The notes under the pieces were generated by a model, which was given only the letters and a program-made list of their open reading frames with translations, did not search any database and was not told where the DNA came from. Shown here piece after piece: positions 11,541 to 41,642 of a stretch of 64,000 bases of DNA. The stretch comes from a candidate division WOR-1 bacterium RIFOXYB2_FULL_37_13. Its GTDB lineage: Bacteria; Margulisbacteria; WOR-1; XYC2-FULL-46-14; XYC2-FULL-37-10. Positions within the stretch are counted from its first letter, which is position 1; every line of letters starts with the position of its first letter. A program made the translations under genes and the position numbers. Location: positions 842 through 64,841 of the forward strand of contig MEUB01000036.1 in the NCBI GenBank assembly GCA_001771535.1, given 5' to 3'.

Positions 11541-12017
11541 TTAAACTTTTTTATGTATCAAGGCAACCGCATATGCGGCGATTCCTTCTTTTTGCCCCGT
11601 AAACCCCATCCCCTCTTCGGTCTTGCCTTTAATATTGATCCTGCTTGTTTCTATTTCAAGAATTCCTGATAAAATTTCACACATTTTAGAAACATAAAGC
11701 TTGAGCTTGGGTTCTTCACAAACAACAGTTGAATCAATGTTGCTTATCATATAACCATTATCACTAATTTTTCTCACAACTGTTGATAACAGCTCAAGGC
11801 TTGAGATATCTTTATACTTTGGATCGGTATCCGGGAAAAAGTCCCCAATACTACCCAAACCCATCGCACCAATTAAAGCATCGATAATAGCATGAGTTAA
11901 AACATCGGCATCGGAATGTCCAAGTAACCCTTTTTTATGAGGGATTTCAACCCCTCCCAAAATAAGTTTGCGGTCATTTACAAGCTTATGAGCATCGTAG
12001 CCTATCCCTATTCGCAT
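11541..12017 (-). CDS. ispF: 2-C-methyl-D-erythritol 2,4-cyclodiphosphate synthase
   Basis: [12 protein letters not shown] ... [11 protein letters not shown] signature. Confidence 0.95.
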
Positions 12018-13201
12018 TTAACCCTCACAAATTTTCTTTTACCCACTTGAATCACTTTTTCTGACGTTAAATCAATAACGGTTTTTTCATCGTTTAAAAC
12101 TTTTTCGGAAACTTTTACCCCACCTTGTTTTATAAGGCGCTTAGCTTCACCATTTGATTCAGCCAATCCCGATTCTACGATAATTTTCACAATATCAATA
12201 TTTTTCTCTTTAAACGTCTTCAAAACAATATCCGTCGGCAAATTTTTATTAGAAAATACTTTCTCAAATTCTTTTTGAGCTTTTGTCGCATCATTTTCAG
12301 AATAGAACCTTGCAACAATTATTTTCGCAAGACGTTTCTTTGCTTCCATGGGATGCATTGTTTTAACTTCATCCAAAGAGATATCTGTTAAAAGTTCATA
12401 ATATTTAAGCATTAGTGTATCCGATATAGAAAGCACCTTTCCAAAAATTTCGGAAGGCGGCTCTGTGACTCCAATGTAGTTACCTAGCGATTTGCTCATT
12501 TTCTGAACACCGTCTAATCCCTCAAGAATTGGCATTGTTAAAACAACTTGAGATTTTTTGCCATATTCTCTTTGAAGCTGCCTGCCAACAATCATATTAA
12601 ACTTTTGGTCAGTACCACCAACTTCAACATCAGCATCAAGGACAACGGAATCATATCCTTGCATAAGCGGGTAACTAAATTCATGAACAGCTATCGATTG
12701 TTCGTTTTTGAATCTTTTTTCAAAATCGTCCCTTTCAAGCATTCTCGCGACAGTATATTTGCTTGAAAGCTTGATTGAATCTTCAAAGCTCATTTTTTTG
12801 AACCATTCACTATTGTAAACAACTTTTGTTTTTGATTTGTCTAGTATTTTAAAAACTTGAGACTGATAAGTTTTCGCGTTTTTTTCTATATCTTCTTTTG
12901 ATAAAGGCTTTCTTGTCTCAGATTTTCCGGTAGGATCTCCTATCATCGCGGTAAAATCACCGATTAAAAAAACAACTTCATGACCTAAGTCTTGGAATTG
13001 TTTTAGTTTATTTAAAACAACTGTATGGCCCAAATGAATATCAGGAGCAGAAGGATCGGCACCAAACTTTATACGAAGCGGTCTGTTTTCTTTGAGCTTT
13101 TCTACAAGCGCATTTTCCGGGATAAGCTCAACAATCCCCTTTTTTATTATTTTTAATTGACTATCAATTGAATGTTTCATTAAACTTTTAAATTTTAACA
13201 T
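12008..13201 (-). CDS. tyrS: Tyrosyl-tRNA synthetase
   Basis: HLGH (HIGH-type) and KMSKS motifs, C-terminal S4 domain. Confidence 0.95.
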
Positions 13202-13239: not shown

Positions 13240-16200
13240 CTAAAGGTTAATTTCAACATTGCCGGATAATTCAGAAGTTTTATAGCTCGGAAAGGTACTG
13301 ATTTCCGATTCAGCGCGAACTGCTACATGCAAAAAACTGTAAAAATCATACTTCCCCCTCAAGCTTAAATTAGTCTTTTCGGAATTTGTTCCGACATAAG
13401 ATTTGGCATATGAATAGTTTCCATCCAACCTGAATTGCCCCGGCAAAGAAAAGGTAAATCCGGCACCTGGAGCAAGAGTATATGTGTCTCTATTATCCGC
13501 AAGCAGAAAATTTGTAAGTTGTGAATAAGAATAAGAAGCATTTAATGCCAAAAAACTATTAATATTTAATATCCCTTTAAGGGATATCGTTTGAGTTAAC
13601 AGATTTTGGGCATTATCGAAAGATTCTTCCGTCCCTGTTTTTGAAATCTGGTAAGAGTAATTGCTGTCAATAGCAAATTTTTCGGTAAGGGGGGTTTTGA
13701 TTACCGCGGTTAGTCCCCTGTTTTGGATATTATTTTTTTGATAAGCCGCCGCCTCTGAAGTGGAAGTTAGTATCAAGGAAACCCTATCTTCTTTTGTATA
13801 GTCAAATTCACAGGAAAGAAAATTAAGAGGGGCTGTTTTTATTGAATAAATCGCGGTAGTTGAGTCTTCCACGTTTTGGTTCCTTAAATAGGAAGGGAAA
13901 TCGGTCTTATCAATATTAAAACCGTTTACCGTTTGCAAAGAATAACCTAAAACAGTCGAATTAAATATAAACCAATTAGACTCAATTTGATTGGTCAAAT
14001 TGCTGTAAGCTGGCCTTTGTGTCCTAGTTAATAAAGTCATATTGGGTCTGTAATAATATCGCAGCCTCAAATTACTGAAAGGATTTATCTCAAAACGCAA
14101 AGAACCTTCTTCTTTGCGAACTCCTTCCTCTGTCACTCCAAATGTCTCTTTTAAAGAACTTACCGCATATTGTCCGTCTGTTTTTAAAAATCCAAACAAT
14201 TGCGCCTTATAAGAAAAATCACTGACTTGCGTTATTCCATCTTTTGTATCATCAATATAGTTCAAAGAACCCGCAAGCATGTATTCCCTCGTGGGGGAAG
14301 CCGATAATTTCAAGATATATGTCTTTTTATAGGAATCATTATCATTAAAGGTGCCATCTGTCTCTCTTAATTCCACATTACCGGAGGCCAAGAATTTTTC
14401 CTGAGGTGCTAAAGATATTCCCGCATTTAAAGTTTTGTAAACAATAGTTTCTTCAGTCGGAGTTCTGCTAAGCCTCTTTTCTTTATCTCCCGTTACAGCG
14501 GCTTGAAATATTCCCATATCATGCCTTATTTGCAAAGAATCTTTAATCGTTAAACGATCGATCGGGGTTCCTGAAACAGGATCATTGCTTTCCAGTATTT
14601 CCTTGTAAATATATTCAAAAGAAGGATATGCGGGTTGGGAAAGCCTTACCCTTCCCATCTTATCAACTGTCTTATACCTTGTTTCTTCCTGCAAATAATC
14701 TGAGTTGGAAAACGAGCCTTCCGCCAGCAACACAGAATTAGGCTGAAAACTGAGCAAAGTTAAATATTCCGTTAAATCCTGCCTTGGCTTAGCATCTCCA
14801 ACTGCGGCAAAATTCAATCCTACTCTTTTGAATTTTCCTCTAAGATTAAAAGGGCCAAAGGCAGACACAGCATCAAGTTTTGCGGCGCGCCCAATATCTT
14901 TTAAGTCCGGATCTGATAGTAATTTATTTTTCTTCTGAGAATATGCGACCTCTCCCTGCATATTAATTAAATCCTGATAAGCAAAAGCACCATCCGCCCC
15001 AATAATTAAATGGCTTTGAGGCTCTATGGACGCGCTTTGAGCAATATTTGCGGCATTATTTAAGCTATCCAGATCATTTATGTATGTTGCTCCGATTTTA
15101 AGGTTGGGCAAAGGATAAAGTTTTCCGCGAAGAGCATAAGTTGAATGCTGATAAATAGTCTCCCTAAAATCATAATGTATGCTTATGATCGACTCTTTCG
15201 GAATTGTTTTATTTTTAAAGGTTATAGTTCCTGCCTGATAATCTATATCATAATCATTTCCTCGTTTTTGTGAAATGCCGTTAACTTCAACTCTTTCCGA
15301 ATCTATAACAACAGGGAAAAAACCGAGATTATAAGGGCCTTGAGTTCCATTGCCATACATCTTTATAAATTTGGATTCACCTTTTGGAGCAGCGGCAAGC
15401 ATTTTAAATCCCCATTTGTCATATTCACCCTCAACCCTGACACCGGACAAAACATTATTAATAGAAGAAAATTCAAGATCATCCATTTTCGGAGTATAAT
15501 TGCCAAGGTATGCTTCTGTTGACCCATTCTTTAACAAAATACTGACATTTTCTTCTCTTGAAGAGACTTCGTTAATGCCTAAAACTGAAGAAGAAAAAAA
15601 GGTCGCATCTATATCGGTGTCCTGCAATTTGCCGGCGATGCTGACGCGCAAAGATTCTTCACGGCTAACTCCGGGCAAAAACCCTTCTTTTGTCCCTTCA
15701 ATGTTTTTTGACGAGAAAGAAAAAACACGGTCTCCGCTAATAAGTAATGGAGAAGAACCCTGTTGCGTCAAAGTCTCACTTTCTTTTTCCTTTAAAGTAA
15801 AAAGCGTTGGTTGCCCTTCTATTTGAGACTTTTTTGATAAAGTATCTGACAGAACAGATTCTTCCGGCCCAAAAACCGACATAACATCTTTTACTGTTAC
15901 CTCATCCTCCTTTTTTGCTCCCGATTTGAGAACCTCTTTTATTTCAGTATCAATAGGGAACGCACGATACCACATTTTTCCGACAAAAAGCTTTTCTGCC
16001 TTTTTAGAAGGAGATGGAATGCTAAAAAATTGAAGGAATTTATTATAAGCTGATATATTTTCGATTTCTGTCTTGTATTTGATATGGATAGATAAAAGCC
16101 TCCATCCATAAGGAGGTTTTTTGCTGGCAACAAACTTTCCAACCCATTTTTTGCCTTTTTCCTCGAGTTTTATTTTTTCTCCATTACTTAAGGATAGCCA

Positions 16201-17862: not shown

Positions 17863-19215
17863 TTACTCAATACACGGAAGATTTTTTAGTGCCTCTTCAA
17901 CGCTTTCTTTAGGATATTCGTAATCTGTTAGTTTCCCTGAAAGATAGGCTTCATAAGAAGCAAGGTCAAAGTTTCCATGACCTGATAAATTAAATACAAT
18001 AACCTTTTCGCCTCCGGTTTTTGCTTCCTCAATTGCCGCCTTAATAGCATGACTGCTTTCAGGCGCAGGGAGGATTCCTTCCGCTTTTGCAAAAAGCACG
18101 GCCGCTTCAAAACATTCTGTTTGATGATAAGCTTTTGCTTCAACTATTTTGTCTTTTACTAAATTTGCAAGAAGCGGAGCTGTTCCATGATAACGAAGTC
18201 CCCCTGCATGAATTCCAGGAGGCATAAAAGAATGTCCAAGAGTATACATTTTAACAAGAGGGGTCAGCCCTACCGTATCACCAAAATCATATCTAAAGTC
18301 TCCCTTTGTAAGACTTGGGCAGGACATCGGTTCTACTGCTATAAGTTTCATGTCAGGATTCGCATATTTATCTTTTAAAAAAGGAAGAGCAATCCCTGCA
18401 AAGTTAGAGCCTCCACCAACACAGGCAATTATAGCGTCCACTTTCTTTTCGCCTGCAAGCTTAAGTTGTTCTTTGGTTTCCAACCCAATTACGGTTTGAT
18501 GAAGCAATACATGATTTAAAACGCTTCCAAGAGTATATTTGGCGCTAGGATCAGAGACCGCGACTTCAACAGCTTCTGATATAGCAATGCCCAAACTTCC
18601 CAAAGAATTTGCGTCAGCTTCAAGGATTTTTCTTCCCGAATTTGTAAGATTTGAAGGAGATGCATGAACGGTAGCCCCCCACACTTGCATTAAATTCTTA
18701 CGATAAGGCTTTTGCTGATAGCTTACCTTTACCATAAAAACTTCGCAAACAAGTCCGAAAATATTACAGGCAAAAGATAACGCAGAACCCCACTGTCCTG
18801 CACCTGTTTCAGTTGTTAATTTTTTTACGCCTTCCTGCTTATTGTAATAGGCTTGAGGAATTGCCGTGTTAACTTTATGCGAACCCGCAGGAGAAAGACT
18901 TTCGTTTTTATAGTAAATGCGTGCTTTGGTCTTTAATGCCTTTTCCAAATTATATGCGCGATGAAGAGGAGACGGTCTCCATAGTTTATAAATTTCGAGA
19001 ACATCATTAGGAATTTCAATCCAAGGTTCGGGAGACATCTCCTGTTTTATAAGCTCCATGGGAAATAGCAGTGCCAAATCCGCAGGTCCTATTGGCTGAT
19101 GTGTCCCTGGATGAAGCGGAGGCGCAAGAGGAGTTTTTAAATCCGGCAGTGCGTTATACCATCTTTTTGGAATCTCATCCTCACGAAGCACTATTCTATA
19201 TTTATCTGACATCAT
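17863..19215 (-). CDS. trpB: Tryptophan synthase beta chain, TrpB2-type
   Basis: EIPKRWYN N-terminal motif characteristic of TrpB2, PLP-enzyme GGGSN motif; start moved to ATGATG at 19215 (AAGGGGGA RBS) rather than 19278, which lies in the heptamer repeat. Confidence 0.85.
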
Positions 19216-19237: not shown

Positions 19238-20038
19238 TCATTGGAAATTGGACATTGGAAATTGGAAATTGTTCCCAAACATCTCTCTCATCTTACCCAA
19301 TACATCTTCACTTTTCAACAAGCTCTCCCCTATTAGGACGGCAGAAAAGCCGGCAGACTTGAGTTCGTCTATTTGAGATTTCTCGCTTATACCGCTTTCA
19401 GAGACCAAAATCCTTGATTTGAGTTCTGGGAATTTATCCAGCAATTTTAAAGAATTATTAAAATCGACTTTTAGAGTATCAAGGTTCCTGTTGTTTATTC
19501 CTACAATATCACAATTTAAAGACAATGCTTTTTCAATATCATATTCATCGTGAGTTTCAAGAAGGACTTGGAGCCCAAGCTCTTTAGCTTTTTCAAGGAA
19601 TCTTGAAAGATCAGGCAATTCTAAAATCCTAGCAATAAGCAGAATTGCATCAGCCCCTGCAATGCGCGATTCTGTTATTTGAAGTTCATCTATTATAAAA
19701 TCTTTGCGGAAAACAGGAAGTTTTACCGCGGCTCTTACCTGTTTTAGAAAGCCTATTTCACCTTGAAAATATGTTTTGTCGGTAAGAACAGATATTGCAA
19801 AGGCACCTGAAGATTCGTACTGTTTGGCAATTGAAACGGGATCAAAGTTTTTGACAATAATACCAGCGGAAGGAGAGGCTTTTTTGATTTCGGCAATAAG
19901 GGAAATTTTATTTTCTTGATTGATGGAAGACTTAAAGTCCCGCAAGTTAGGATCAAACTCCGTCTTAGCTGTTGCCAATCTTTCTTTTAAAGCTTCGATC
20001 TCTTTTCTTTTAGTTAAAATTATTTCATCGAGGATCAT
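19238..20038 (-). CDS. trpC: Indole-3-glycerol phosphate synthase
   Basis: TIM-barrel IGPS motifs ([21 protein letters not shown]); stop codon lies inside the heptamer repeat. Confidence 0.9.
19239..19275. repeat. Heptanucleotide tandem repeat, (TCCAATK)n on the minus strand, ~5 units
   Basis: Read directly: cattggaaattggacattggaaattggaaattg; translated as [11 protein letters not shown]-stop at the trpC C-terminus. Confidence 0.8.
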
Positions 20039-20111: not shown

Positions 20112-20477
20112 ATGTCAACTTTAGCAGATTATAAAAAGTTTTGGTCAAGAAAATTCAAAGAAGACGAAAAAGCAAAAAAGAAGAAAATAAAACTTTTTAA
20201 GCAGCTTGCATCTGATGCAGCAAATATTTTAATAAAAGATTTTAAAGCCAAAAAGGTTTATCTCTTTGGATCAACTTTGGATGAAAAAATCTTTCATGAA
20301 AAATCAGACATAGATTTGGCAGTTGAAGGATTAAATCCTAAAATACATTTTTCCGCATTATCTGAAATAAAAAAACTGCTTTTTAAAAAAGCAAATGTAG
20401 ATCTTGTCCCTATGGAAGATGCATCGGAAGCACTTAAAGCATTAATTTTCAAAAAGGGAGAAATCTTATATGGCTAA
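20112..20477 (+). CDS. Minimal nucleotidyltransferase (MNT), TA antitoxin-type
   Basis: LFGSxxxxxxxxxSDIDLAV pol-beta-superfamily NTase motif; 121 aa. Confidence 0.7.
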   Translation: MSTLADYKKFWSRKFKEDEKAKKKKIKLFKQLASDAANILIKDFKAKKVYLFGSTLDEKIFHEKSDIDLAVEGLNPKIHFSALSEIKKLLFKKANVDLVPMEDASEALKALIFKKGEILYG

Positions 20478-20943
20478 ATTTGAAGGACTGATTATAGATA
20501 TAGATTTAGAACTTCAAAATCTTGATCGATTAACTATGGAGCTTGGTCAAACAACACAAGAGATAAAAGAGATTCCGGATTATACGCAGATAAGAGCTAT
20601 TGGCAGTATTTTACATGATTTTTATACAGGACTTGAGAAAATTTTTGAAAGAATCGCGTTAACCATAGATGGAGGAGTTCCTGAAGGTGATGATTGGCAT
20701 ATTCAACTTTTACGCCGAATGCTTGCCAATATTCCAGACCGCAGACCTGCCTTATTTACAAAAAATGTTGGAGAGTCTTTAGGCGAATATCTTAGCTTTA
20801 GACATCTTTTTAGAAATATTTATGGTTTTGAATTAAAATGGGAGCGTATGAGTCCTCTTGTTGAAAAATTCCCTTCTGTTTTCAAAGAAGTTGAATCTCA
20901 ACTTATGAAGTTTATAAACTTCATATCAGAAATACAAAATTAA
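20470..20943 (+). CDS. HEPN-like / nucleotidyltransferase substrate-binding (HI0074-like) partner protein
   Basis: 8-nt overlap with the MNT gene, size and helical character fit HEPN partners; motif not confirmed. Confidence 0.45.
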   Translation: MAKFEGLIIDIDLELQNLDRLTMELGQTTQEIKEIPDYTQIRAIGSILHDFYTGLEKIFERIALTIDGGVPEGDDWHIQLLRRMLANIPDRRPALFTKNVGESLGEYLSFRHLFRNIYGFELKWERMSPLVEKFPSVFKEVESQLMKFINFISEIQN

Positions 20944-29226: not shown

Positions 29227-29402
29227 AGCGCAGTTTTTTCCCCTGAAGGATTAATATTCCAGGCATTTATAGCTACCCTTTTTGGGTTTTTTGGATCAAC
29301 CTTAACGGGGATAACGGCTCCCAACTGGATAAGAGAAAGCCCCATTAAAGGAATCAAAAATTTGTTTTCTATAATATAATATTCGAGCTTGTCCGTCAAC
29401 TC
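29223..29402 (-). pseudogene. C-terminal fragment of an IS-disrupted membrane-protein paralog
   Basis: ~150 bp near-identical to 33240-33390 of the intact paralog; homology stops at the outer IS junction (29403). Confidence 0.6.
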
Positions 29403-30001: not shown

Positions 30002-30862
30002 TTATGCATTCACGAACTTTTTTTCAAAGTTGTCTGGCGACAGAAACCCTATGGACGAGTGCCTTCTCTGTCGATTATAGAACACTTCGATGTAATTGAA
30101 AATGGACTGCCGCGCCTCCTTTCTTGTGGCATATCTTTCAAAATAGACTTGTTCAGTCTTCAATGAATGAAAGAAACTCTCGGTTATAGCATTATCGTAA
30201 CACCTCCCTTTGCGACTCATGCTTTGAATGAAACCATAATTGTTAAGCAATAGTCTCGTATCTCTGGCCGCATATTGAATACCTCGATCAGAATGAAATA
30301 TTATATTTTTGCCTGGCTGGCGGCTCAAGATAGCACCCTTTATGGCCTTGACCACCAATTGGCTTTCTAGGTGCTTTCCCATAGACCATCCGACAATCTT
30401 TCTGGAAAAGACATCAAGAACAACTGCAAGATAAAGCCAGCCCTCCAATGTCCAGATGTATGTAATATCTGATGTCCAGACTCGATTGGCTGATGCTGAA
30501 ACAAAGTTTTGCTTTAGAATATTTGGAGCTACTGGCAAAGTGTGCTGAGAATCAGTTGTCACTCTAAATTTTCTTCTTGTCTTAGCCACAAATTTGCCTT
30601 TCATAAGACGCTCAATCCTTTTTTTATTGTAATGATAACCTTGGCTCTTAAGTTCGGCACAAACTCTGGGCCGACCATAAAGCTCATGGTTTTCAAAAAA
30701 AATCTTCTTGATCTTATCCAGCAAAACCTCATTTTCTGTTTCTCTTTGGCTTTTCTCTCCCCTTAGCCATTTGTAATAGCCGCTTCGTGATACATCTAAC
30801 AACTGGCACATCTTCTCAACCGGAAAGTCGAAGCATTGCTCTCTTACAAACATAAATCTCAT
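30002..30862 (-). CDS. IS3-family transposase OrfB (integrase core, DDE)
   Basis: HSDRGIQY ... CYDNAITESFF motifs. Confidence 0.85.
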   Translation of the reverse strand: MRFMFVREQCFDFPVEKMCQLLDVSRSGYYKWLRGEKSQRETENEVLLDKIKKIFFENHELYGRPRVCAELKSQGYHYNKKRIERLMKGKFVAKTRRKFRVTTDSQHTLPVAPNILKQNFVSASANRVWTSDITYIWTLEGWLYLAVVLDVFSRKIVGWSMGKHLESQLVVKAIKGAILSRQPGKNIIFHSDRGIQYAARDTRLLLNNYGFIQSMSRKGRCYDNAITESFFHSLKTEQVYFERYATRKEARQSIFNYIEVFYNRQRRHSSIGFLSPDNFEKKFVNA

Positions 30863-31158
30863 CTCGGTTGTTTGGAGAAGATGGCCACTGCTTTTTTTAA
30901 AATATCTCGCTCCAACCTGGCCTCTGCCAACTCTTTTCTTAAACGCCTGATTTTAAGAGATTCCTCAATCCCTCCGCTTGTTTCTCCGTCTTCTCCCTCT
31001 CTTCGATCACGTTTTTGCCATCCATACAGCGTACTCGATGACACTCCTAAATCTTTAGCAATTGAGGCTACAGGTCGCTTGCTGGTATTAATTAAATCCA
31101 GCGTTTCCCTAATGAAGTCCTTATCACACCGTTTATATGGTCCTTTCTTTTTCCCCAT
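30859..31158 (-). CDS. IS3-family transposase OrfA (HTH)
   Basis: HTH region, leucine-zipper-like C-terminus; A-run slippery sequence (TTAAAAAAAG) ~35 nt before the stop, consistent with -1 frameshifting into orfB. Confidence 0.8.
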   Translation of the reverse strand: MGKKKGPYKRCDKDFIRETLDLINTSKRPVASIAKDLGVSSSTLYGWQKRDRREGEDGETSGGIEESLKIRRLRKELAEARLERDILKKAVAIFSKQPR

Positions 31159-32022
31159 AAAATCCCCCCCCTCTAATATATTATCAAAATCTCTAATTAC
31201 TGTGTCTACTAAAAGGGGGGAGGGTCACATATCGTGACAGATCAATTACTTTCACCAAGACTAATCCAAGGAAAATTAATATCGGCGAAAGAAAACGCCC
31301 TGAACCTCAAGGCAAGCCAGGCTATATCCGCGTAGATACTGTGCATCAGGGCGATTCCGACAAACAAAAAGGGGTCTATTATATAAATACTGTCGACGAA
31401 GTTACCCAATGGCAGGCAATTGCCGCTGTAGAAAAAATATCTGAAACATATTTACTCGAGGCTCTCTTAGGCTTGCTCAATCAATTTCCATTTGAAATCA
31501 TTGAATTTCATAGCGACAATGGTTCAGAATACATCAACAGACAAGTCGCAGAACTTTTAAACAGACTTTTAATTAAACTTACGAAATCTCGAGCTAGACA
31601 CTGTAATGATAACGCTTTAGTAGAGTCAAAAAATGGGGCTGTAATTAGAAAATGGATGGGCTATGCTCATATTCCTCAGAAACATGCCCAAGACATCAAC
31701 AAATTCTTTAAAAAATATTTTAATTTATATTTAAACTACTACAGACCTTCTATTTTCCCTGAAATTGTATTTTCTGCAAAAAGAAAAGAGGTCAAAAAAT
31801 ACAGATATGAGAATACAATGACCCCTTTCGCAAAACTAAAATCCATTTTTGAATACAAAAAGTTCCTCAAAAAGAATACTTCCGTCGTTGACTTAGAATT
31901 GTTTTTAAGCAATGATAGTCCTAATGAGTTTGCTGAAAAGGTGGTGAAGGCTCAAGATTGTCTCTTTAATGGCATTTCTACCTAACCCTTTTTCAGGGAC
32001 ATTCTTGCATTAGAAAATACTC

Positions 32023-32878: not shown

Positions 32879-33739
32879 TTATATAGGCTTTTGTATACTT
32901 CCAGTCATAGCTATCATGACATGTGTTGGATCATTGTTGTCTATTTCACAAGGATATACAGCTCCCACTCTAATAAGTTGTAAGGCAACATCCGGCAAAG
33001 GCATCTCTTTATCAAGAACATATGGAGTTATTCCTTCTCCGGTTACCTCATATTTAAGAGAATAAACTTTTTGACCATTTTTTGTCTTTTCCGCATCGGC
33101 AAAACCCATTATCCTAGCCTGGCCTTTTTTTCCATTAACCACAACGCCTCGCTCCACATTCCCAGCAACCCCTAAATTTTGAAAATTTACAGGCATCCCT
33201 TGCATTATGGGTTGTCCTTGAAAATTTTGCGCAGTTCTTTTTTCTGAAGGATTAATATTCCAGGCATTTATAGCTACCCTTTTTGGGTTTTTTGGATCAA
33301 CCTTAACGGGGATAACGGCTCCCAACCGGATAAGAGAAAGCCCCATTAAAGGAACCATAAATTTGTCTTCTACAATATAAGGAGGCTGGTTTGAGGTCGA
33401 CACTTCCAGTTTCAGTTTCATCATCGGTTGATTGTTTATTTGCGTTCCGGTCTGAATAACCTCCAAAATTCGCGCTTGCCCGTCAACTCCTTTTTCACGA
33501 AGTTCTTGATCACTAAATATCATTTTCCAGATTATTTTAATAGGGCCAATCAAAGAAGGAATAACAAAAAAAATAATCGCAATAATAAATACTATCGGCA
33601 AAAAATCTATCGGACGCAAACTAAGTCCCATATCGACTCTACTTCTATAAATATTCAGAAAAACGGCCGGAAGAACACCAAAACAAACAACAATAAAAAC
33701 AAAAACAGAAGAAATAATTGCAAATTTTACTGATCTCAT
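32879..33739 (-). CDS. Membrane protein, intact paralog with 2 TM and two tandem copies of the C-terminal beta domain
   Basis: Motif xLxxVGAxxPxxxDxxxP appears twice; N-terminus MRSVKF... shared with the other paralogs. Confidence 0.7.
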   Translation of the reverse strand: MRSVKFAIISSVFVFIVVCFGVLPAVFLNIYRSRVDMGLSLRPIDFLPIVFIIAIIFFVIPSLIGPIKIIWKMIFSDQELREKGVDGQARILEVIQTGTQINNQPMMKLKLEVSTSNQPPYIVEDKFMVPLMGLSLIRLGAVIPVKVDPKNPKRVAINAWNINPSEKRTAQNFQGQPIMQGMPVNFQNLGVAGNVERGVVVNGKKGQARIMGFADAEKTKNGQKVYSLKYEVTGEGITPYVLDKEMPLPDVALQLIRVGAVYPCEIDNNDPTHVMIAMTGSIQKPI

Positions 33740-33815: not shown

Positions 33816-34715
33816 ATGGATACATTCCACCTGCCTGTAATGGCAAAAGAGATAGTTAATTTTCTCTCCCCTCTTAACGGAAAAACAATCGTCGATTGTA
33901 CGGTGGGTGGAGGGGGACACATCTCAAAACTAATATCCAATATCCAATTTCCAATTTCCAATGTCCAATGTCCAATGTCCAATTTCCACATCATAGCTAT
34001 CGACCAAGACCAGGAAGCTCTTGAGTTTGCTAAAAAACGATTGGCTAAATATGACAACATTGAATATATCCATGACAATTTTGGCAACTTGGCAAATATA
34101 ATAAAAGAGTCTGTTGATGCTTTTCTCTTTGATCTTGGCATTTCATCATACCAGATAGACCAGGCTTCCCGCGGTTTTAGCATACGATACGATGCGCCTC
34201 TTGATATGCGAATGGACAAAAGTAAACAGACATCCGCTCGCGAAATAATCCACAATTCAAGCGAGGATGAATTAGCGCAAATTTTCAAAGAGTATGGTGA
34301 AGAGCGGTTTTCAAGAAGAGTTGCCCGCGCGATTGTCTTGGAAAGAGACAAAAAAGAGATAAACACAACATTTGAGCTGAAAGATATAATAGAGAAAGCA
34401 ATCCCCACATGGAAAAAGAGAGAGTCTGTTACCCGCATATTCCAAGCACTCCGAATTGCTGTTAATTCAGAGCTTGATGTTTTAAAAAAAGCTCTGGAAT
34501 CAACAATCCCTTTACTTAAACCGGAAGGGAAAATAATCGTAATGTCGTATCATTCATTGGAAGATCGAATTGTTAAATGGTTTTTCAGAGATAAAGCTAA
34601 AAATGGTATACTTAATATACTTACAAAAAAGCCTGTTCTTGCGACAGAAGAAGAGACTGCAATTAATCCAAGGGCAAAAAGCGCTAAGTTGCGGTGCGCT
34701 GAAAAGAACAACTAA
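33816..34715 (+). CDS. rsmH: 16S rRNA (cytosine1402-N4)-methyltransferase
   Basis: GGGGH SAM-binding motif, DLGISSYQID motif; contains an in-frame heptamer-repeat insertion. Confidence 0.85.
   Translation: MDTFHLPVMAKEIVNFLSPLNGKTIVDCTVGGGGHISKLISNIQFPISNVQCPMSNFHIIAIDQDQEALEFAKKRLAKYDNIEYIHDNFGNLANIIKESVDAFLFDLGISSYQIDQASRGFSIRYDAPLDMRMDKSKQTSAREIIHNSSEDELAQIFKEYGEERFSRRVARAIVLERDKKEINTTFELKDIIEKAIPTWKKRESVTRIFQALRIAVNSELDVLKKALESTIPLLKPEGKIIVMSYHSLEDRIVKWFFRDKAKNGILNILTKKPVLATEEETAINPRAKSAKLRCAEKNN
33935..33990. repeat. Heptanucleotide tandem repeat, (NTCCAAT) x ~7.5 units, inside rsmH
   Basis: Read directly: ATCCAAT ATCCAAT TTCCAAT TTCCAAT GTCCAAT GTCCAAT GTCCAAT TTCCACA; translated in frame as [18 protein letters not shown]. 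Confidence 0.85.
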
Positions 34716-38147: not shown

Positions 38148-38633
38148 ATGAAAAAATTTGTTATGCTGCTATCTATTTTTGTCGCTGGGGTTATTGTTTT
38201 GGGTTTACCGGTATCTGCCGCATGGAGAGGCACTGAAGGAAGAGAAGCTACGAGGCGAACCGTTGGGAAAGCTGCTGTAAAAGAATCTGGAAAAACAACA
38301 GAAGATATCAGAGGAAGATCAGGGAGAACTGAAGGAAGAAGAGCTGTTGGAAAAGCAGCTGTAAAACAGTCCGGGAAAACAACAGAAGATATCAGAGGCG
38401 TTGAAGGAAGACAGGAGACAAGAAGAACCACCAGTAAAGCGATTCTTAAAGAATCTGGAAAAACAACAGAAGATATCAGAGGAAGATCAGGGAGAACTGA
38501 AGGAAGAAGAGCTGTTGGAAAAGCAGCTGTAAAACAGTCAGGGAAAACAACAGAAGAGATAAGAGGGGTTGAAGGAAGACAAGAATTCAGACAAGAGGTA
38601 GGCAAAGACGTCTACGAAGAGACAAAAGAATAA
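38148..38633 (+). CDS. Secreted repeat protein (161 aa) made of 28-aa tandem repeats
   Basis: Signal peptide; ~4.5 repeats of GRSGRTEGRRAVGKAAVKQSGKTTEDIR-type units. Confidence 0.65.
   Translation: MKKFVMLLSIFVAGVIVLGLPVSAAWRGTEGREATRRTVGKAAVKESGKTTEDIRGRSGRTEGRRAVGKAAVKQSGKTTEDIRGVEGRQETRRTTSKAILKESGKTTEDIRGRSGRTEGRRAVGKAAVKQSGKTTEEIRGVEGRQEFRQEVGKDVYEETKE
38229..38606. repeat. 84-bp tandem repeat array (A-B-C-B-C' pattern; a 168-bp near-perfect direct repeat)
   Basis: Read directly; units abut without spacers and the array is in frame within the CDS. Confidence 0.7.
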
Positions 38634-40424: not shown

Positions 40425-41642
40425 ATGAAAATTTTATTTATCTCAAATTATTTGTATTTAGACGGTCCTCCGATAGCCCTTTTCCGAATAGTGCGAGAAC
40501 TTGCTAAAATAAGCGGCCTTGAAATAGCCGTATTATCTTACCTTGATGGTTCCATAAAGAAATGGTATGAAAATATAGGGATAAGCCCAATAATTGCGAA
40601 CTGTTATGAGCCGATAATAGAGAATATAAACTCGCTTGTAAAAACAATAAAAGAAGAAAAGCCTGATCTTGTCGTTTCAAATATGCTGGACACGATTAAC
40701 GGATGCTTTGCAGCAAACATTTGCAATCTCCCTTCTGTTTTATATGTTCATGAAGATTGGCCGGCAATTAATTTTTCCACTCTGCATCTGTTTGCATATA
40801 AATTGTCAGACCTAATAGTTTTTCCGTCAAAATACCAGCTGGACGTATACAAACCACTTCTTGACGGGGTAAAAACAAAAGTAATAACAAACGGAATTCC
40901 ATTATCTGAGTTCAGTGCAGCTTCAATAAAACAATCGAAAGAAGAGATAAAAAATAAATACAAACTCCCACTTGATAAAAAAATCGTTTCAACAATAGGG
41001 CTTGTATGCAACCGCAAACGGCAGGATCTTTTTATTTTTGCCGCGCATGAAATCTTAAAATTACGGGATGACATCATCTTTCTTATTGTTGGCAGATACC
41101 ATGAAGATGATAATTATTACAAACTATTAAAAAAATACGTGCAAACAGGGGGGCTGGAAAATAAAATCATATTTGCAGGCGAAAAAGAAGCTATAGGAGA
41201 AATTTACCATATATCCGATTTAATTGCCCACCCTACAAGCAATGATGTCTCCCCTCTTGCAATATCAGAAGCACTTGCTTTCAAAAAGCCTGTCATTGCA
41301 ACTTCGATAGATGGGATTCCTGAACTCATAGAAAACGGACAAAACGGGCTTTTAATTGAACAAAACAATTCCCAACAATTAAAAGAAGGCATCATAAAAA
41401 TTATCGACAATTATCTTTTTTTTCAAAATAATCTGGAAAGAACGCATAAAGAAATACAAAACATAACAACAGCTTCTTCCGATTTTTTTGATGTGATTAA
41501 AAATCTGAAATTCAAAAAGAAAGAGTTTGATGTCAAAATGCTGAAAGATGAAATAGAATTTACAGTTAAAAAAGGCTTTTCATTAAAATTCAAAGAGATT
41601 ACCCCGCTGATAGTCAGAAAACCGGCTTCAAAATTCAAATAA
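40425..41642 (+). CDS. Glycosyltransferase family 1 (GT4-type)
   Basis: C-terminal EALAFKKPVIAT..GIPELIENGQNGLL motif of the GT-B fold. Confidence 0.8.
   Translation: MKILFISNYLYLDGPPIALFRIVRELAKISGLEIAVLSYLDGSIKKWYENIGISPIIANCYEPIIENINSLVKTIKEEKPDLVVSNMLDTINGCFAANICNLPSVLYVHEDWPAINFSTLHLFAYKLSDLIVFPSKYQLDVYKPLLDGVKTKVITNGIPLSEFSAASIKQSKEEIKNKYKLPLDKKIVSTIGLVCNRKRQDLFIFAAHEILKLRDDIIFLIVGRYHEDDNYYKLLKKYVQTGGLENKIIFAGEKEAIGEIYHISDLIAHPTSNDVSPLAISEALAFKKPVIATSIDGIPELIENGQNGLLIEQNNSQQLKEGIIKIIDNYLFFQNNLERTHKEIQNITTASSDFFDVIKNLKFKKKEFDVKMLKDEIEFTVKKGFSLKFKEITPLIVRKPASKFK

What the first reader, a model, noticed from the sequence alone, without database searches (positions are those of the whole stretch)
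33935..33990. In-frame heptanucleotide tandem repeat (TCCAATN)n inside rsmH, and a second copy at the trpC stop / trpB2 start (19239-19275)
About 7.5 tandem 7-mers (ATCCAAT, TTCCAAT, GTCCAAT variants) are translated as [18 protein letters not shown] in the linker between the RsmH GGGH motif and the conserved IAIDxD segment; that linker looks several residues longer than typical RsmH here. The same repeat (5 units) provides the last 11 codons and the TGA stop of trpC ([11 protein letters not shown]). It would also encode SNFQCPISN if trpB2 started at the upstream GTG/ATG. A 7-bp unit shifts the frame with every gain or loss of one unit, which is the classic architecture of contingency (phase-variable) loci. 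These, however, are housekeeping genes. Heptamer tandem repeats of this kind are also used as dispersed genomic repeats in some lineages (cf. cyanobacterial STRR elements), so this may be a lineage-specific small dispersed repeat that invades tolerant coding loops.
Basis: seen in the sequence. Interest (0 to 1): 0.6.

Follow-up and report, generated by a model that had tools for sequence, protein, structure and literature searches.

The report
Frame-shifting 7-base repeat inside rsmH
A run of eight 7-base repeats sits inside a ribosome-modifying gene (rsmH) of an uncultured groundwater bacterium, and natural populations carry both the intact 8-copy version and a 7-copy version that breaks the gene, so it behaves as a slippage-driven on/off mutational hotspot of a known general kind in an unusual gene and lineage.

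Summary
Window 33932-33988 holds 8.1 tandem NTCCAAT units inside rsmH, and 19240-19271 holds 4.6 units at the trpC stop, just upstream of trpB2. The organism is a Saganbacteria (WOR-1) groundwater MAG. The rsmH array encodes a low-confidence surface loop, 10-13 residues longer than in solved RsmH structures.

The key result is a length polymorphism. In one near-clonal population, 11 contigs plus the window carry 8 units. Three independent assemblies carry 7 units, and in two of them this is the only indel in 11-21 kb. The 7-unit allele stops RsmH at codon 58. Only 5, 8 or 11 units keep the frame.

Four of the five species examined in this clade have a period-7 array in the same loop, each with a different unit. 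The sister species keeps only remnants. This points to growth and turnover in place rather than insertion of a mobile repeat.

NTCCAAT arrays also occur in many phyla. They are less than twice as common as composition-matched heptamers, and they occur in genomes rich in many heptamer families, which is a documented phenomenon.

Verdict: a slippage-prone heptanucleotide repeat acting as a frameshift switch, mechanistically like E. coli neuO. Whether the switching is selected is unproven. New member of a known kind; moderate interest.

The parts
33932..33988 (+). Heptanucleotide tandem array (NTCCAAT) x 8.1 inside rsmH, covering codons 39-58. It encodes the loop [18 protein letters not shown].
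   Evidence: The loop is a coil with pLDDT about 57 in the AF2 model. The array is polymorphic, with 8 or 7 units, among assemblies.
33957..33977 (+). Run of three perfect GTCCAAT units. One of them is missing in the 7-unit allele; the exact unit lost cannot be assigned within the run.
   Evidence: Alignment A1. BLAST places the 7-bp deletion at about 33957, and it is the only indel in 20.7 kb (L007) and 11.4 kb (L008).
33816..34715 (+). rsmH, encoding 16S rRNA m4C1402 methyltransferase (299 aa). This is the ON allele with 8 units.
   Evidence: PDB hits 1m6y at 9.6e-63 and 3tka at 1.5e-49. Pfam PF01795 on the product. Named RsmH in NCBI records OGC21744.1 and OGC32605.1. AF2 mean pLDDT 90.9.
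33975..33977 (+). ATG (M54) created by a GTCCAAT unit. Gene callers start the truncated 246-aa product here on the 7-unit contigs. That product lacks motif I (GGGGH).
   Evidence: P0003 begins MSNFHIIAID. Frame analysis.
19240..19271 (-). Second array of the same unit, (TCCAATN) x 4.6 on the coding strand of trpC. It supplies the last 11 codons of TrpC and its TGA stop, and lies 24 nt upstream of the trpB2 start.
   Evidence: It is invariant on 22 contigs. Two Logan contigs end exactly at it (L016 at 19241, L026 at 19239). Loss of one unit would fuse TrpC to TrpB2 in frame, and gain of one unit gives a 273-aa TrpC.
19238..20038 (-). trpC, encoding indole-3-glycerol-phosphate synthase (266 aa). 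Homology to solved IGPS structures ends by about residue 255-257.
   Evidence: 6bma at 1.6e-52. Pfam IGPS on the product.
17863..19215 (-). trpB2-type tryptophan synthase beta chain. The real start is at the Met-Met at 19215 or 19212, downstream of the array.
   Evidence: homology to 6hul_B and 4qys_B starts at residue 25-31 of the 471-aa ORF. The gene is called as 449 or 450 aa on other contigs.

Best explanation
The feature is a slippage-prone heptanucleotide simple-sequence repeat that arose and is continually remodelled in place, inside a structurally permissive surface loop of RsmH between SAM-binding motif I and strand beta2.

The unit NTCCAAT has no stop codon in any of the six reading frames. 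An array can therefore persist in coding DNA as long as its length keeps the frame, which here means 5, 8 or 11 units. Because 7 is not a multiple of 3, each single-unit gain or loss by replication slippage shifts the frame. The 8-unit allele makes full-length RsmH. The 7-unit allele terminates after 57 codons and is a null allele. Both alleles are present in natural populations of this Saganbacteria species, so rsmH is a de facto mutational on/off locus.

The second array, at the trpC stop, uses the genome's same favoured unit. It sits where length changes only alter a non-homologous C-terminal tail, or fuse TrpC to TrpB2.

Shown: the repeat, its position in the protein, the 7/8 polymorphism and its coding consequence, period-7 arrays in the same loop in relatives, and the general abundance of heptamer arrays. 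Inferred: slipped-strand mispairing as the mechanism; that persistence is driven mainly by mutational dynamics plus tolerance rather than by selection for switching; and that the OFF allele abolishes m4C1402 methylation.
For: Array and statistics.

Loop position: the array lies between GGGGH and IIAID, with 10-13 extra residues against solved RsmH. In the AF2 model, residues 43-57 are a coil with pLDDT about 57 in an otherwise 90.9 model.

Polymorphism: identical 8-unit RsmH occurs on 10 contigs, plus L151. Three assemblies from three ENA samples lack exactly one GTCCAAT. This is the only indel in 20.7 kb and 11.4 kb of otherwise at least 99.9% identical sequence. A census through the invariant downstream gene gives 11 contigs with 8 units, 3 with 7 units and 1 not covering the array, with no other alleles.

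Consequence: the 7-unit allele stops at codon 58, and only 5, 8 or 11 units are in frame.

In-place origin: the same loop carries (AATGTCA)x4.4 in L150, an imperfect AATGNCA/AATTTCC array in L243 and (AACTCCN)x7 in L241. The sister species L152 keeps two isolated units, the 3' one in register with the window's last unit. None of 80 unselected rsmH loci from other bacteria has a loop array.

Stop-free unit.

General heptamer excess and the slippage hypothesis in the literature: PMC4692102 and PMC4679880, and my own period spectra.

Tolerability of rsmH loss: E. coli delta-rsmH is viable with a 15% longer doubling time (PMC2831307).
Against: No reads were available, so I could not measure within-sample heterogeneity, switching rate or reversibility.

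All three 7-unit contigs come from one assembly pipeline (MEGAHIT k141 contig names), and none from the JGI or original Rifle assemblies. However, a fourth contig from that pipeline has 8 units. By my own enumeration of the array (not a tool run), every 21-mer across it is unique, so a collapse in the assembly graph is not expected.

A purely neutral repeat would be expected to decay, yet period-7 arrays persist in this loop across species whose RsmH is only about 60% identical. The OFF allele is also the assembled consensus in three samples. Both facts fit selection for switching at least as well as neutrality.

Reuse of one unit at separate loci in a genome (two in the window, three in L243) is not explained by independent local slippage alone.
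Confidence: 0.68

Rival explanations
1. rsmH is a true contingency (phase-variable) locus. The repeat is maintained by second-order selection because stochastic, reversible loss of m4C1402 methylation produces a subpopulation with altered ribosome P-site behaviour (start-codon stringency, UGA read-through) that is favoured under some conditions.
For: All the structural hallmarks are present: a unit length not divisible by 3, a position in the 5' fifth of the gene (codons 39-58 of 299), a one-step ON/OFF polymorphism in nature, and an OFF allele that is the assembled consensus in three samples. A period-7 array is retained at the same loop in 4 of 5 species despite about 60% protein identity, with the units homogenised within each array. 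Saganbacteria loci are not otherwise heptamer-rich (4.7 arrays per 100 kb, as in unselected DNA), and 2 of their 3 strong arrays are in this loop. The 7- and 8-unit alleles are not tied to one SNP background. Loss of RsmH changes non-AUG initiation and UGA read-through in E. coli.
Against: There is no evidence of reversibility, rate or phenotype. Only two alleles have been seen. The sister species has lost the array without losing the gene. The same genome carries the same unit at the trpC end, where switching has no obvious use. L243 carries such arrays in argC, argJ and at gene junctions, which suggests a general mutational process rather than a dedicated switch. No paper in the library links rsmH and phase variation.
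Confidence: 0.2
2. The arrays are copies of a small mobile or actively seeded dispersed repeat (STRR-like, MITE-like, or generated by an unknown sequence-specific activity) that inserts into tolerant sites.
For: The same unit occurs at two unlinked loci in the window. Three CGAATNN arrays occur at separate loci in 21 kb of L243. [quoted passage not shown] Two Logan contigs end exactly at the trpC array, as expected if its k-mers recur elsewhere in the genome. NTCCAAT arrays occur in many phyla, often 2-3 per 8 kb.
Against: Orthologous positions carry arrays of different units, and the sister species keeps in-register remnants, which argues for descent and turnover in place. I saw no terminal inverted repeats, target duplications or conserved flanks at the array edges in the sequences I read. 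NTCCAAT is less than twice as common as composition-matched heptamers (54 against 27-33 stretches). The genomes that carry it hold 163 other heptamer classes, so there is no sign of one specific element spreading.
Confidence: 0.1
3. The repeat is a static, harmless loop insertion, and the 7-unit 'allele' is an assembly or sequencing artefact. There is no real hypermutability.
For: All three 7-unit contigs have MEGAHIT-style k141 names, and none of the JGI, original Rifle, NCBI or Logan records shows 7 units. The trpC array shows no variation on 22 contigs.
Against: Three separate samples give the identical 7-unit structure, while a fourth assembly from the same pipeline gives 8 units (L004). 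The deletion is the only indel in 11-21 kb, and other repeats on the same contigs (the 84-bp tandem array and the trpC array) are intact. The array is 57 bp, much shorter than k=141. By my own enumeration of the sequence, it contains no repeated 21-mer, so there is no graph loop to collapse.
Confidence: 0.1

Closest known systems
neuO of E. coli K1 (prophage CUS-3 O-acetyltransferase): heptanucleotide (AAGACTC)n repeat in the 5' coding region
   Same: A 7-nt unit lies in frame in the 5' part of a coding sequence. Slipped-strand changes of one unit switch translation off, and the full-length product is made only in one of three unit-number classes. ON and OFF genotypes coexist in natural isolates (PMC13001214).
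   Different: neuO is a prophage-borne surface-modification gene of a pathogen, with 3-53 repeats and measured switching. Here the gene is a chromosomal housekeeping rRNA methyltransferase of a groundwater bacterium. It has 7-8 units, sits in an internal loop rather than at the N-terminus, and no rate or phenotype is known.
Cyanobacterial heptanucleotide tandem repeats: the three tandemly repetitive heptanucleotides of Calothrix PCC 7601 (STRR; name and consensus from memory) and GGGGA(T/C)T repeats of Nostoc PCC 7120
   Same: These are genome-specific favoured heptamers repeated in tandem at many loci, with unknown function. The host phylum here is the sister group of Cyanobacteria. Heptamer over-representation and the polymerase-slippage idea are described in PMC4692102.
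   Different: The unit sequences differ. The published arrays are reported as over-represented in intergenic regions and number in the tens to hundreds per genome. Here both arrays overlap coding sequence, and the density in the available Saganbacteria DNA is no higher than in unselected bacterial DNA.
TAACTGA direct repeats of marine Beggiatoaceae, some Cyanobacteria and Bacteroidetes (PMC4679880)
   Same: One favoured heptamer per genome occurs in sets of 2-6 units, scattered across distant phyla with no evident transfer mechanism. The arrays often lie at gene starts and ends, and the translated arrays are considered as parts of proteins.
   Different: TAACTGA contains stop codons in the forward orientation and is mostly intergenic, upstream of start codons. 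NTCCAAT is open in all six frames and is embedded in ORFs.
Phase-variable DNA methyltransferases (phasevarions; Mod and Type I hsdS/hsdM with simple-sequence repeats)
   Same: A methyltransferase gene is switched on and off by a change in repeat number, with potentially global downstream effects (PMC7383803 and PMC10123105, listed).
   Different: Those enzymes methylate DNA, occur in host-adapted pathogens and use 1-5-nt units. Here the target is 16S rRNA C1402 and the unit is 7 nt. No regulon effect is known.
In-frame small repeats in housekeeping genes, such as Rickettsia palindromic elements (from memory, not checked here)
   Same: Repeat-derived peptide segments are tolerated in surface loops of conserved enzymes.
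   Different: Those are mobile palindromic elements of about 100-150 bp with defined ends. Here the segment is a simple tandem array that grew in place, with no element boundaries.

Membership tests
Repeat-mediated phase-variable (contingency) locus | Tandem simple-sequence repeat, with unit length not a multiple of 3, inside the ORF or its promoter | tested here: met
   7-nt unit, 8.1 copies, codons 39-58 of rsmH.
Repeat-mediated phase-variable (contingency) locus | Unit number varies among cells or strains of one population | tested here: met
   8 units on 11 contigs plus the window, and 7 units on 3 contigs from 3 samples, in a background at least 99.7% identical. This is at assembly level only, with no reads.
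Repeat-mediated phase-variable (contingency) locus | Unit-number change switches expression of a functional product on and off | tested here: met
   By translation, 7 units give a stop at codon 58, and only 5, 8 or 11 units are in frame. Loss of activity is inferred from loss of everything after motif I.
Repeat-mediated phase-variable (contingency) locus | High-frequency, reversible switching | not testable with these tools
   This needs read-level allele spectra or culture. Weak hint only: the alleles are not confined to one SNP background.
Repeat-mediated phase-variable (contingency) locus | Switching confers a selectable phenotype | not testable with these tools
   Only the E. coli delta-rsmH phenotype is known: a 15% slower doubling and altered initiation and read-through (PMC2831307).
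Cyanobacterial STRR / genome-specific heptamer repeat families | Tandem repeats of a 7-nt unit | tested here: met
Cyanobacterial STRR / genome-specific heptamer repeat families | The same favoured unit recurs at many dispersed loci of one genome | tested here: inconclusive
   There are two loci in 64 kb of the window. Three CGAATNN arrays occur in 21 kb of relative L243. The whole genome was not available, and the peptide search found nothing.
Cyanobacterial STRR / genome-specific heptamer repeat families | Published STRR unit sequences and a cyanobacterial host | tested here: not met
   The unit is NTCCAAT and the host is candidate division WOR-1 / Saganbacteria. The STRR consensus sequences are recalled from memory, not retrieved.
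Cyanobacterial STRR / genome-specific heptamer repeat families | Over-representation in intergenic regions, as reported for heptameric repeats in Xanthomonas and Nostoc | tested here: not met
   Both window arrays overlap coding sequence. All six L243 arrays overlap ORFs or gene junctions.
Small mobile dispersed repeat (MITE, RPE or SDR type) | Discrete element with defined ends (terminal inverted repeats or target duplication), inserted as a unit and absent from orthologous empty sites | tested here: not met
   The array edges grade into native sequence. The sister species keeps in-register single units, and orthologous loops hold arrays of other units. No element-like flanks were seen in the sequences read.
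RsmH / MraW 16S rRNA m4C1402 methyltransferase (Pfam PF01795) | Full-length similarity to solved RsmH structures, including SAM-binding motif I (GGGGH) and the acidic residue at the end of beta2 | tested here: met
   1m6y at 9.6e-63 over residues 4-297. G31-H35, D63 and D65 are invariant in 40 relatives. AF2 pLDDT 90.9. Enzymatic activity was not tested.
Programmed ribosomal frameshift site | Slippery X XXY YYZ heptamer with a downstream stimulatory structure, rescuing the out-of-frame allele | tested here: not met
   By inspection, the unit NTCCAAT has no X XXY YYZ pattern in any register. Rfam finds no RNA element in the window. No folding test was run.

The most novel reading that the evidence does not exclude
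rsmH is a conserved, selected contingency locus in Saganbacteria and Margulisbacteria. On this reading, a heptanucleotide array has been kept in the same loop across deep species divergence, with its unit sequence turning over by concerted evolution. The reason would be that stochastic on/off switching of m4C1402 methylation creates ribosome heterogeneity (altered start-codon stringency and UGA read-through) as a bet-hedging strategy in free-living, uncultured groundwater bacteria. That would extend phase variation from surface and restriction-modification genes of pathogens to the translation apparatus itself.
Probability: 0.17. Interest if true: 0.75.

Novelty: new member of a known kind. 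Interest (0 to 1): 0.5.

Why it matters
If the polymorphism is confirmed at read level, this is a natural case of a housekeeping ribosome-modification gene being switched off and, potentially, back on by repeat slippage. It would be in an environmental, uncultured lineage, outside the pathogen surface-antigen context where phase variation is usually studied. It also gives a concrete and tractable example for the long-noted but unexplained excess of heptanucleotide repeats in bacteria: an array whose orthologues can be followed across species, showing persistence at one site with turnover of the unit sequence. There is a practical side as well. Such arrays create real frameshift alleles and contig breaks in metagenome assemblies, which can be misread as pseudogenes or annotation errors.

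Tried and rejected
1. The truncated RsmH of the sister species (P0126, 262 aa, starting in the same linker) looked like a second frame-shifted allele. It is an artefact: an N-run scaffold gap in L159 and a contig end in L160.

I re-used these loci as an unselected control set.

3. A protein search with the repeat-encoded peptide, meant to list other host proteins, found nothing. Only 2 candidates shared words with the query, and none scored.

4. P0002, the 305-aa relative, was not on record in the contig index. Its cluster-mate P0125 was used instead.

5. I tested whether the common 12-aa loop of the clade is itself array-derived. Amino-acid identity at offset 7 is the highest (0.17-0.19 against 0.03-0.125 at other offsets), but alpha-helical periodicity and lysine richness could produce the same signal, so the test is inconclusive.

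6. The idea that NTCCAAT is a special cross-phylum element was rejected. Composition-matched heptamers give 27-33 stretches against 54, and the carrier genomes hold 163 other heptamer classes.

7. Being stop-free in all six frames as an explanation on its own: about 30% of fixed heptamers of similar GC content share the property, although only 4 of 90 arrangements of these six bases do so for every N. The property is permissive rather than sufficient.

8. Rfam found no RNA family in the window.

9. A literature search for the repeat sequence itself returned only two incidental, unrelated matches. None of the listed hits of a search combining rsmH with phase variation held both terms, and none of the listed hits of a search combining Saganbacteria or Margulisbacteria with repeat terms mentioned either lineage.

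10. The contig-break region at window 15903-15986 is not a repeat.
Full report
**1. The observation**

The repeat exists as described. Tandem Repeats Finder reports window 33932-33988 as 8.1 copies of a 7-nt unit (94% matches, score 79). It reports 19240-19271 as 4.6 copies of the same unit on the other strand (sequences). TCCAATNTCCAAT with up to one mismatch occurs 10 times against 0.97 expected, and no shuffle out of 100 reaches that number.

The first array is in frame in a 299-aa ORF (33816-34715, +) and reads [33 protein letters not shown]. The second provides the last 11 codons and the TGA of a 266-aa ORF on the minus strand (19238-20038), reading ...[11 protein letters not shown]. It is also open in the frame of the following ORF.

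**2. The genes and the organism**

The 299-aa protein is RsmH, matching T. maritima 1m6y at E = 9.6e-63 and E. coli 3tka at 1.5e-49. Against these solved structures, the segment between motif I and the beta2 strand is 10-13 residues longer. TrpC homology to solved IGPS structures ends by residue 255-257 of 266, so the repeat supplies a non-homologous tail. TrpB2 homology starts at residue 25-31 of the long ORF, and other assemblies call the gene from the Met-Met at 19215 or 19212. The second array is therefore TrpC tail plus the leader of trpB2.

The closest RsmH relatives are named Candidatus Saganbacteria, candidate division WOR-1 or Margulisiibacteriota. The exact proteins are OGC21744.1 and OGC32605.1 (RsmH) and OGC12597.1 and others (TrpC), from candidate division WOR-1 bacterium RIFOXYC2_FULL_37_10 and sibling MAGs. 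An AlphaFold2 model built with 40 relatives is confident overall (mean pLDDT 90.9). Residues 43-57 are the exception: they form a coil between helix 34-42 and strand 58-63, with a block pLDDT of about 57. The repeat therefore encodes a low-confidence, probably flexible surface loop.

**3. Length polymorphism**

The exact 299-aa protein is encoded on 10 contigs from JGI, ENA and other sources. A 246-aa protein identical to its C-terminal part (P0003) starts at M54, an ATG created by a GTCCAAT unit. It is encoded on three contigs from three ENA samples.

Aligning the DNA shows that these three contigs lack exactly one GTCCAAT unit and are otherwise identical over the 221 bases aligned. Over the full loci, the 7-bp deletion is the only indel in 20.7 kb (L007, plus 1 mismatch) and in 11.4 kb (L008, no mismatch).

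The 7-unit allele reads ...NVQCPISTS* and stops after 57 codons. Simulated alleles show that only 5, 8 or 11 units keep the frame, while 6, 7, 9 and 10 units stop at codons 58-72.

A census through the invariant FtsL/DivIC-like gene immediately downstream finds 15 contigs: 11 with 8 units, 3 with 7 units and 1 that does not reach the array. No other allele is on record. The 90% cluster of RsmH holds no 292-aa or 306-aa in-frame variants.

The SNP at 41319 is T in the 8-unit contigs L001 and L002 and in the 7-unit contig L007, but C in the 8-unit window. The 7-unit contig L009 has three private SNPs. The alleles are therefore not tied to one background, although the markers are few.

One caveat applies. 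The three 7-unit contigs all carry MEGAHIT-style k141 names. A fourth contig from the same series has 8 units (L004). By my own enumeration of the sequence (not a tool run), the 57-bp array contains no repeated 21-mer, so I see no route to an assembly collapse. Reads were not available to confirm this.

By contrast, the trpC array is identical on 22 contigs. Two Logan contigs end exactly at it.

**4. Origin of the rsmH array**

Among 92 RsmH relatives of this clade, the linker between GGGGH and the beta2 motif has a modal length of 12 aa but ranges from 9 to 51 aa. It is a hypervariable loop. At the DNA level:

| Locus | Species / RsmH identity to the window | Loop DNA |
|---|---|---|
| window | – | (NTCCAAT)x8 |
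| L150 | another Saganbacteria, GCA_016223245.1, 60% | (AATGTCA)x4.4 |
| L243-L245 | 59%, identical in three samples | AATGACA AATGTCA AATTTCC AATGTCA AATTA |
| L241, L242 | 59% | (AACTCCN)x7 |
| L152 | sister species, 86% | no array; two isolated units, AATGTCC and AATATCC |

In L152 the 3' isolated unit is in register with the window's last unit.

Four of the five species thus have a period-7 array in the same loop, but with different units, and the units within each array are more alike than units between arrays. In 106 kb of Saganbacteria DNA (window, L150, L152) there are only three strong heptamer arrays, and two of them lie in this loop. None of 80 rsmH loci from unrelated bacteria has one. 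I read this as descent from an ancestral proto-array, with expansion, contraction and homogenisation in place, rather than insertion of a ready-made element.

The trpC 3' end shows the same behaviour. In L243 the trpC TGA is the start of (CGAATNN)x4. L150 and L152 have none there.

**5. The broader class**

The hits fall in Chloroflexota, Patescibacteria, Bacteroidota, Acidobacteriota, Proteobacteria, Verrucomicrobiota and other phyla. Arrays are mostly 3-6 units long and reach 25 units, and several 8-kb loci hold 2-3 arrays.

This is not a special element. In the 850 kb around those hits there are 397 distinct period-7 arrays (46.7 per 100 kb). Of these, 236 have other units, falling into 163 classes, and 88 of 120 loci have at least one. 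Unselected bacterial DNA has 4.7 per 100 kb, which is still the commonest period between 5 and 12, and the Saganbacteria loci also have 4.7. In viral contigs, NTCCAAT x3 gives 54 stretches against 27, 30, 33 and 31 for four composition-matched heptamers.

The literature already records that heptameric repeats are over-represented among long simple-sequence repeats in many bacteria, and proposes polymerase slippage favoured at 7 nt as a reason. It also records that genomes have favoured heptamers: GGGAATC in Xanthomonas, GGGGA(T/C)T in Nostoc, three heptanucleotides in Calothrix, and TAACTGA in Beggiatoaceae, Cyanobacteria and Bacteroidetes. For TAACTGA, 'no mechanism is evident' for its spread (PMC4692102 and PMC4679880).

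The window fits that pattern, with one unit at two loci. So does L243, with three CGAATNN arrays in 21 kb. Together with the other arrays in that locus, these overlap the ArgC start and AMMECR1 stop, an internal ArgC loop, ArgJ, the TrpC stop and HIT start, and the RsmH loop.

In other phyla, arrays lying inside long ORFs sit in real proteins, typically at linkers. Examples are a class A penicillin-binding protein, two ABC ATPases, ThyX and an FAD/NAD oxidoreductase.

NTCCAAT is open in all six reading frames for every N. Only 4 of the 90 arrangements of these six bases share that property. This explains why the unit can live in coding DNA in either orientation.

**6. Mechanism**

Best supported: this is a slippage-prone heptanucleotide repeat in a permissive loop. 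Single-unit changes toggle the reading frame, with 8 units ON and 7 units OFF.

An OFF state is plausible in nature because RsmH is dispensable in E. coli. There, delta-rsmH lengthens the doubling time by 15%, increases initiation at AUU and changes UGA read-through (PMC2831307).

The closest worked example is neuO of E. coli K1, where an (AAGACTC)n array in the 5' coding region gives full-length protein only when n is divisible by three, and where ON and OFF genotypes coexist (PMC13001214).

What is not shown here is the rate, the reversibility or any benefit of switching. Two facts lean towards selection: the persistence of arrays in this loop across deep divergence, and the OFF allele being the assembled consensus in three samples. 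Three facts lean towards a general mutational process that is merely tolerated: the sister species has lost the array, the trpC array is stable, and similar arrays are scattered through argC, argJ and gene junctions in L243.

I put the plain hypermutable-repeat reading at about 0.68 and the selected contingency locus at about 0.2. I put a mobile or seeded repeat at about 0.1, and an artefactual polymorphism at about 0.1.

**7. Novelty and verdict**

Heptanucleotide repeat families and heptanucleotide-driven translational switching are both known. No paper in the searchable library holds this repeat sequence in a relevant context. None of the listed hits of the rsmH and phase-variation search holds both terms, and none of the listed hits of the repeat search mentions Saganbacteria or Margulisbacteria.

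The feature is therefore a new member of a known kind. The unusual aspects are the target (a ribosome-modifying housekeeping gene), the host (an uncultured groundwater lineage sister to Cyanobacteria) and the orthologous persistence with turnover of the unit. Interest is moderate at 0.5. It would rise substantially if read-level data showed genuine within-population switching.

Noticed in passing
window 29228-29379 and 33229-33380: A 152-bp segment is repeated at 94% identity (9 mismatches, no gaps). One copy lies inside the 286-aa ORF immediately upstream of rsmH (32879-33739, minus strand) and the other about 4 kb away. It is seen in every contig that covers both sites.
   Followed up: no
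window 38262-38566: An 84-bp tandem repeat of 3.6 copies (72% matches, score 363), which would encode 28-aa repeats if translated. Its internal 134-bp copies are 97% identical, and it shows no length difference among the assemblies compared.
   Followed up: no
window about 30002-31985 (from L001 gene calls shifted by 23815): IS3-type transposase genes (HTH_Tnp_1 plus rve, and a second rve ORF) lie between trpC and rsmH. In two other Saganbacteria/Margulisbacteria genomes (L150, L243), trpC and rsmH are adjacent and divergent. The 14-kb separation in the window therefore looks like a rearrangement or insertion.
   Followed up: partly
window 20112-20943: An overlapping gene pair encodes a Polbeta-type nucleotidyltransferase (121 aa) and a HepT-like protein (157 aa). 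This is the arrangement of an MNT/HepT toxin-antitoxin pair, directly upstream of and divergent from trpC.
   Followed up: no
window 15903-15986 and about 11814-12025: Several assemblies break or differ here. L011 lacks about 33 bp at 15904-15931 inside the 1067-aa ORF, giving 1056 aa. L013 (NCBI MAG) has gaps at both places. L015 starts at 15932. L011 also has a 5-bp deletion at about 11840 that splits ispF. No repeat explains the 159xx site.
   Followed up: partly
L243 9169-9199, 18755-18787, 19529-19560: In a related Margulisbacteria-type genome, the heptamer unit CGAATNN supplies both stop and start codons at gene junctions (TrpC TGA and HIT ATG; AMMECR1 stop and ArgC ATG). It encodes the same peptide motif MPNAEL/MPNDEL at two protein N-termini and in an internal ArgC loop.
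   Followed up: partly
RsmH relatives P0008, P0018, P0048, P0057, P0066, P0102: Other members of the clade carry quite different long insertions in the same RsmH loop (up to 51 aa), rich in 'SPSP.GRGG'-like peptides. They look like translations of another kind of small GC-rich repeat. Their DNA was not examined.
   Followed up: no
L183 6934-6965, L197 1869-1970, L229 3782-3804: In unrelated bacteria from the control set, period-7 arrays lie immediately next to rsmH (just after its stop or just before its start), although not in the loop.
   Followed up: no
P0123 (308 aa, SRR3989339) and P0001/L151: Some RsmH sequences combine the window-type N-terminal part, including the 8-unit loop, with the sister-species-type C-terminal part. 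L151 has 17 clustered SNPs at 34315-34622. This indicates either recombination between the two co-occurring species or chimeric assembly.
   Followed up: no
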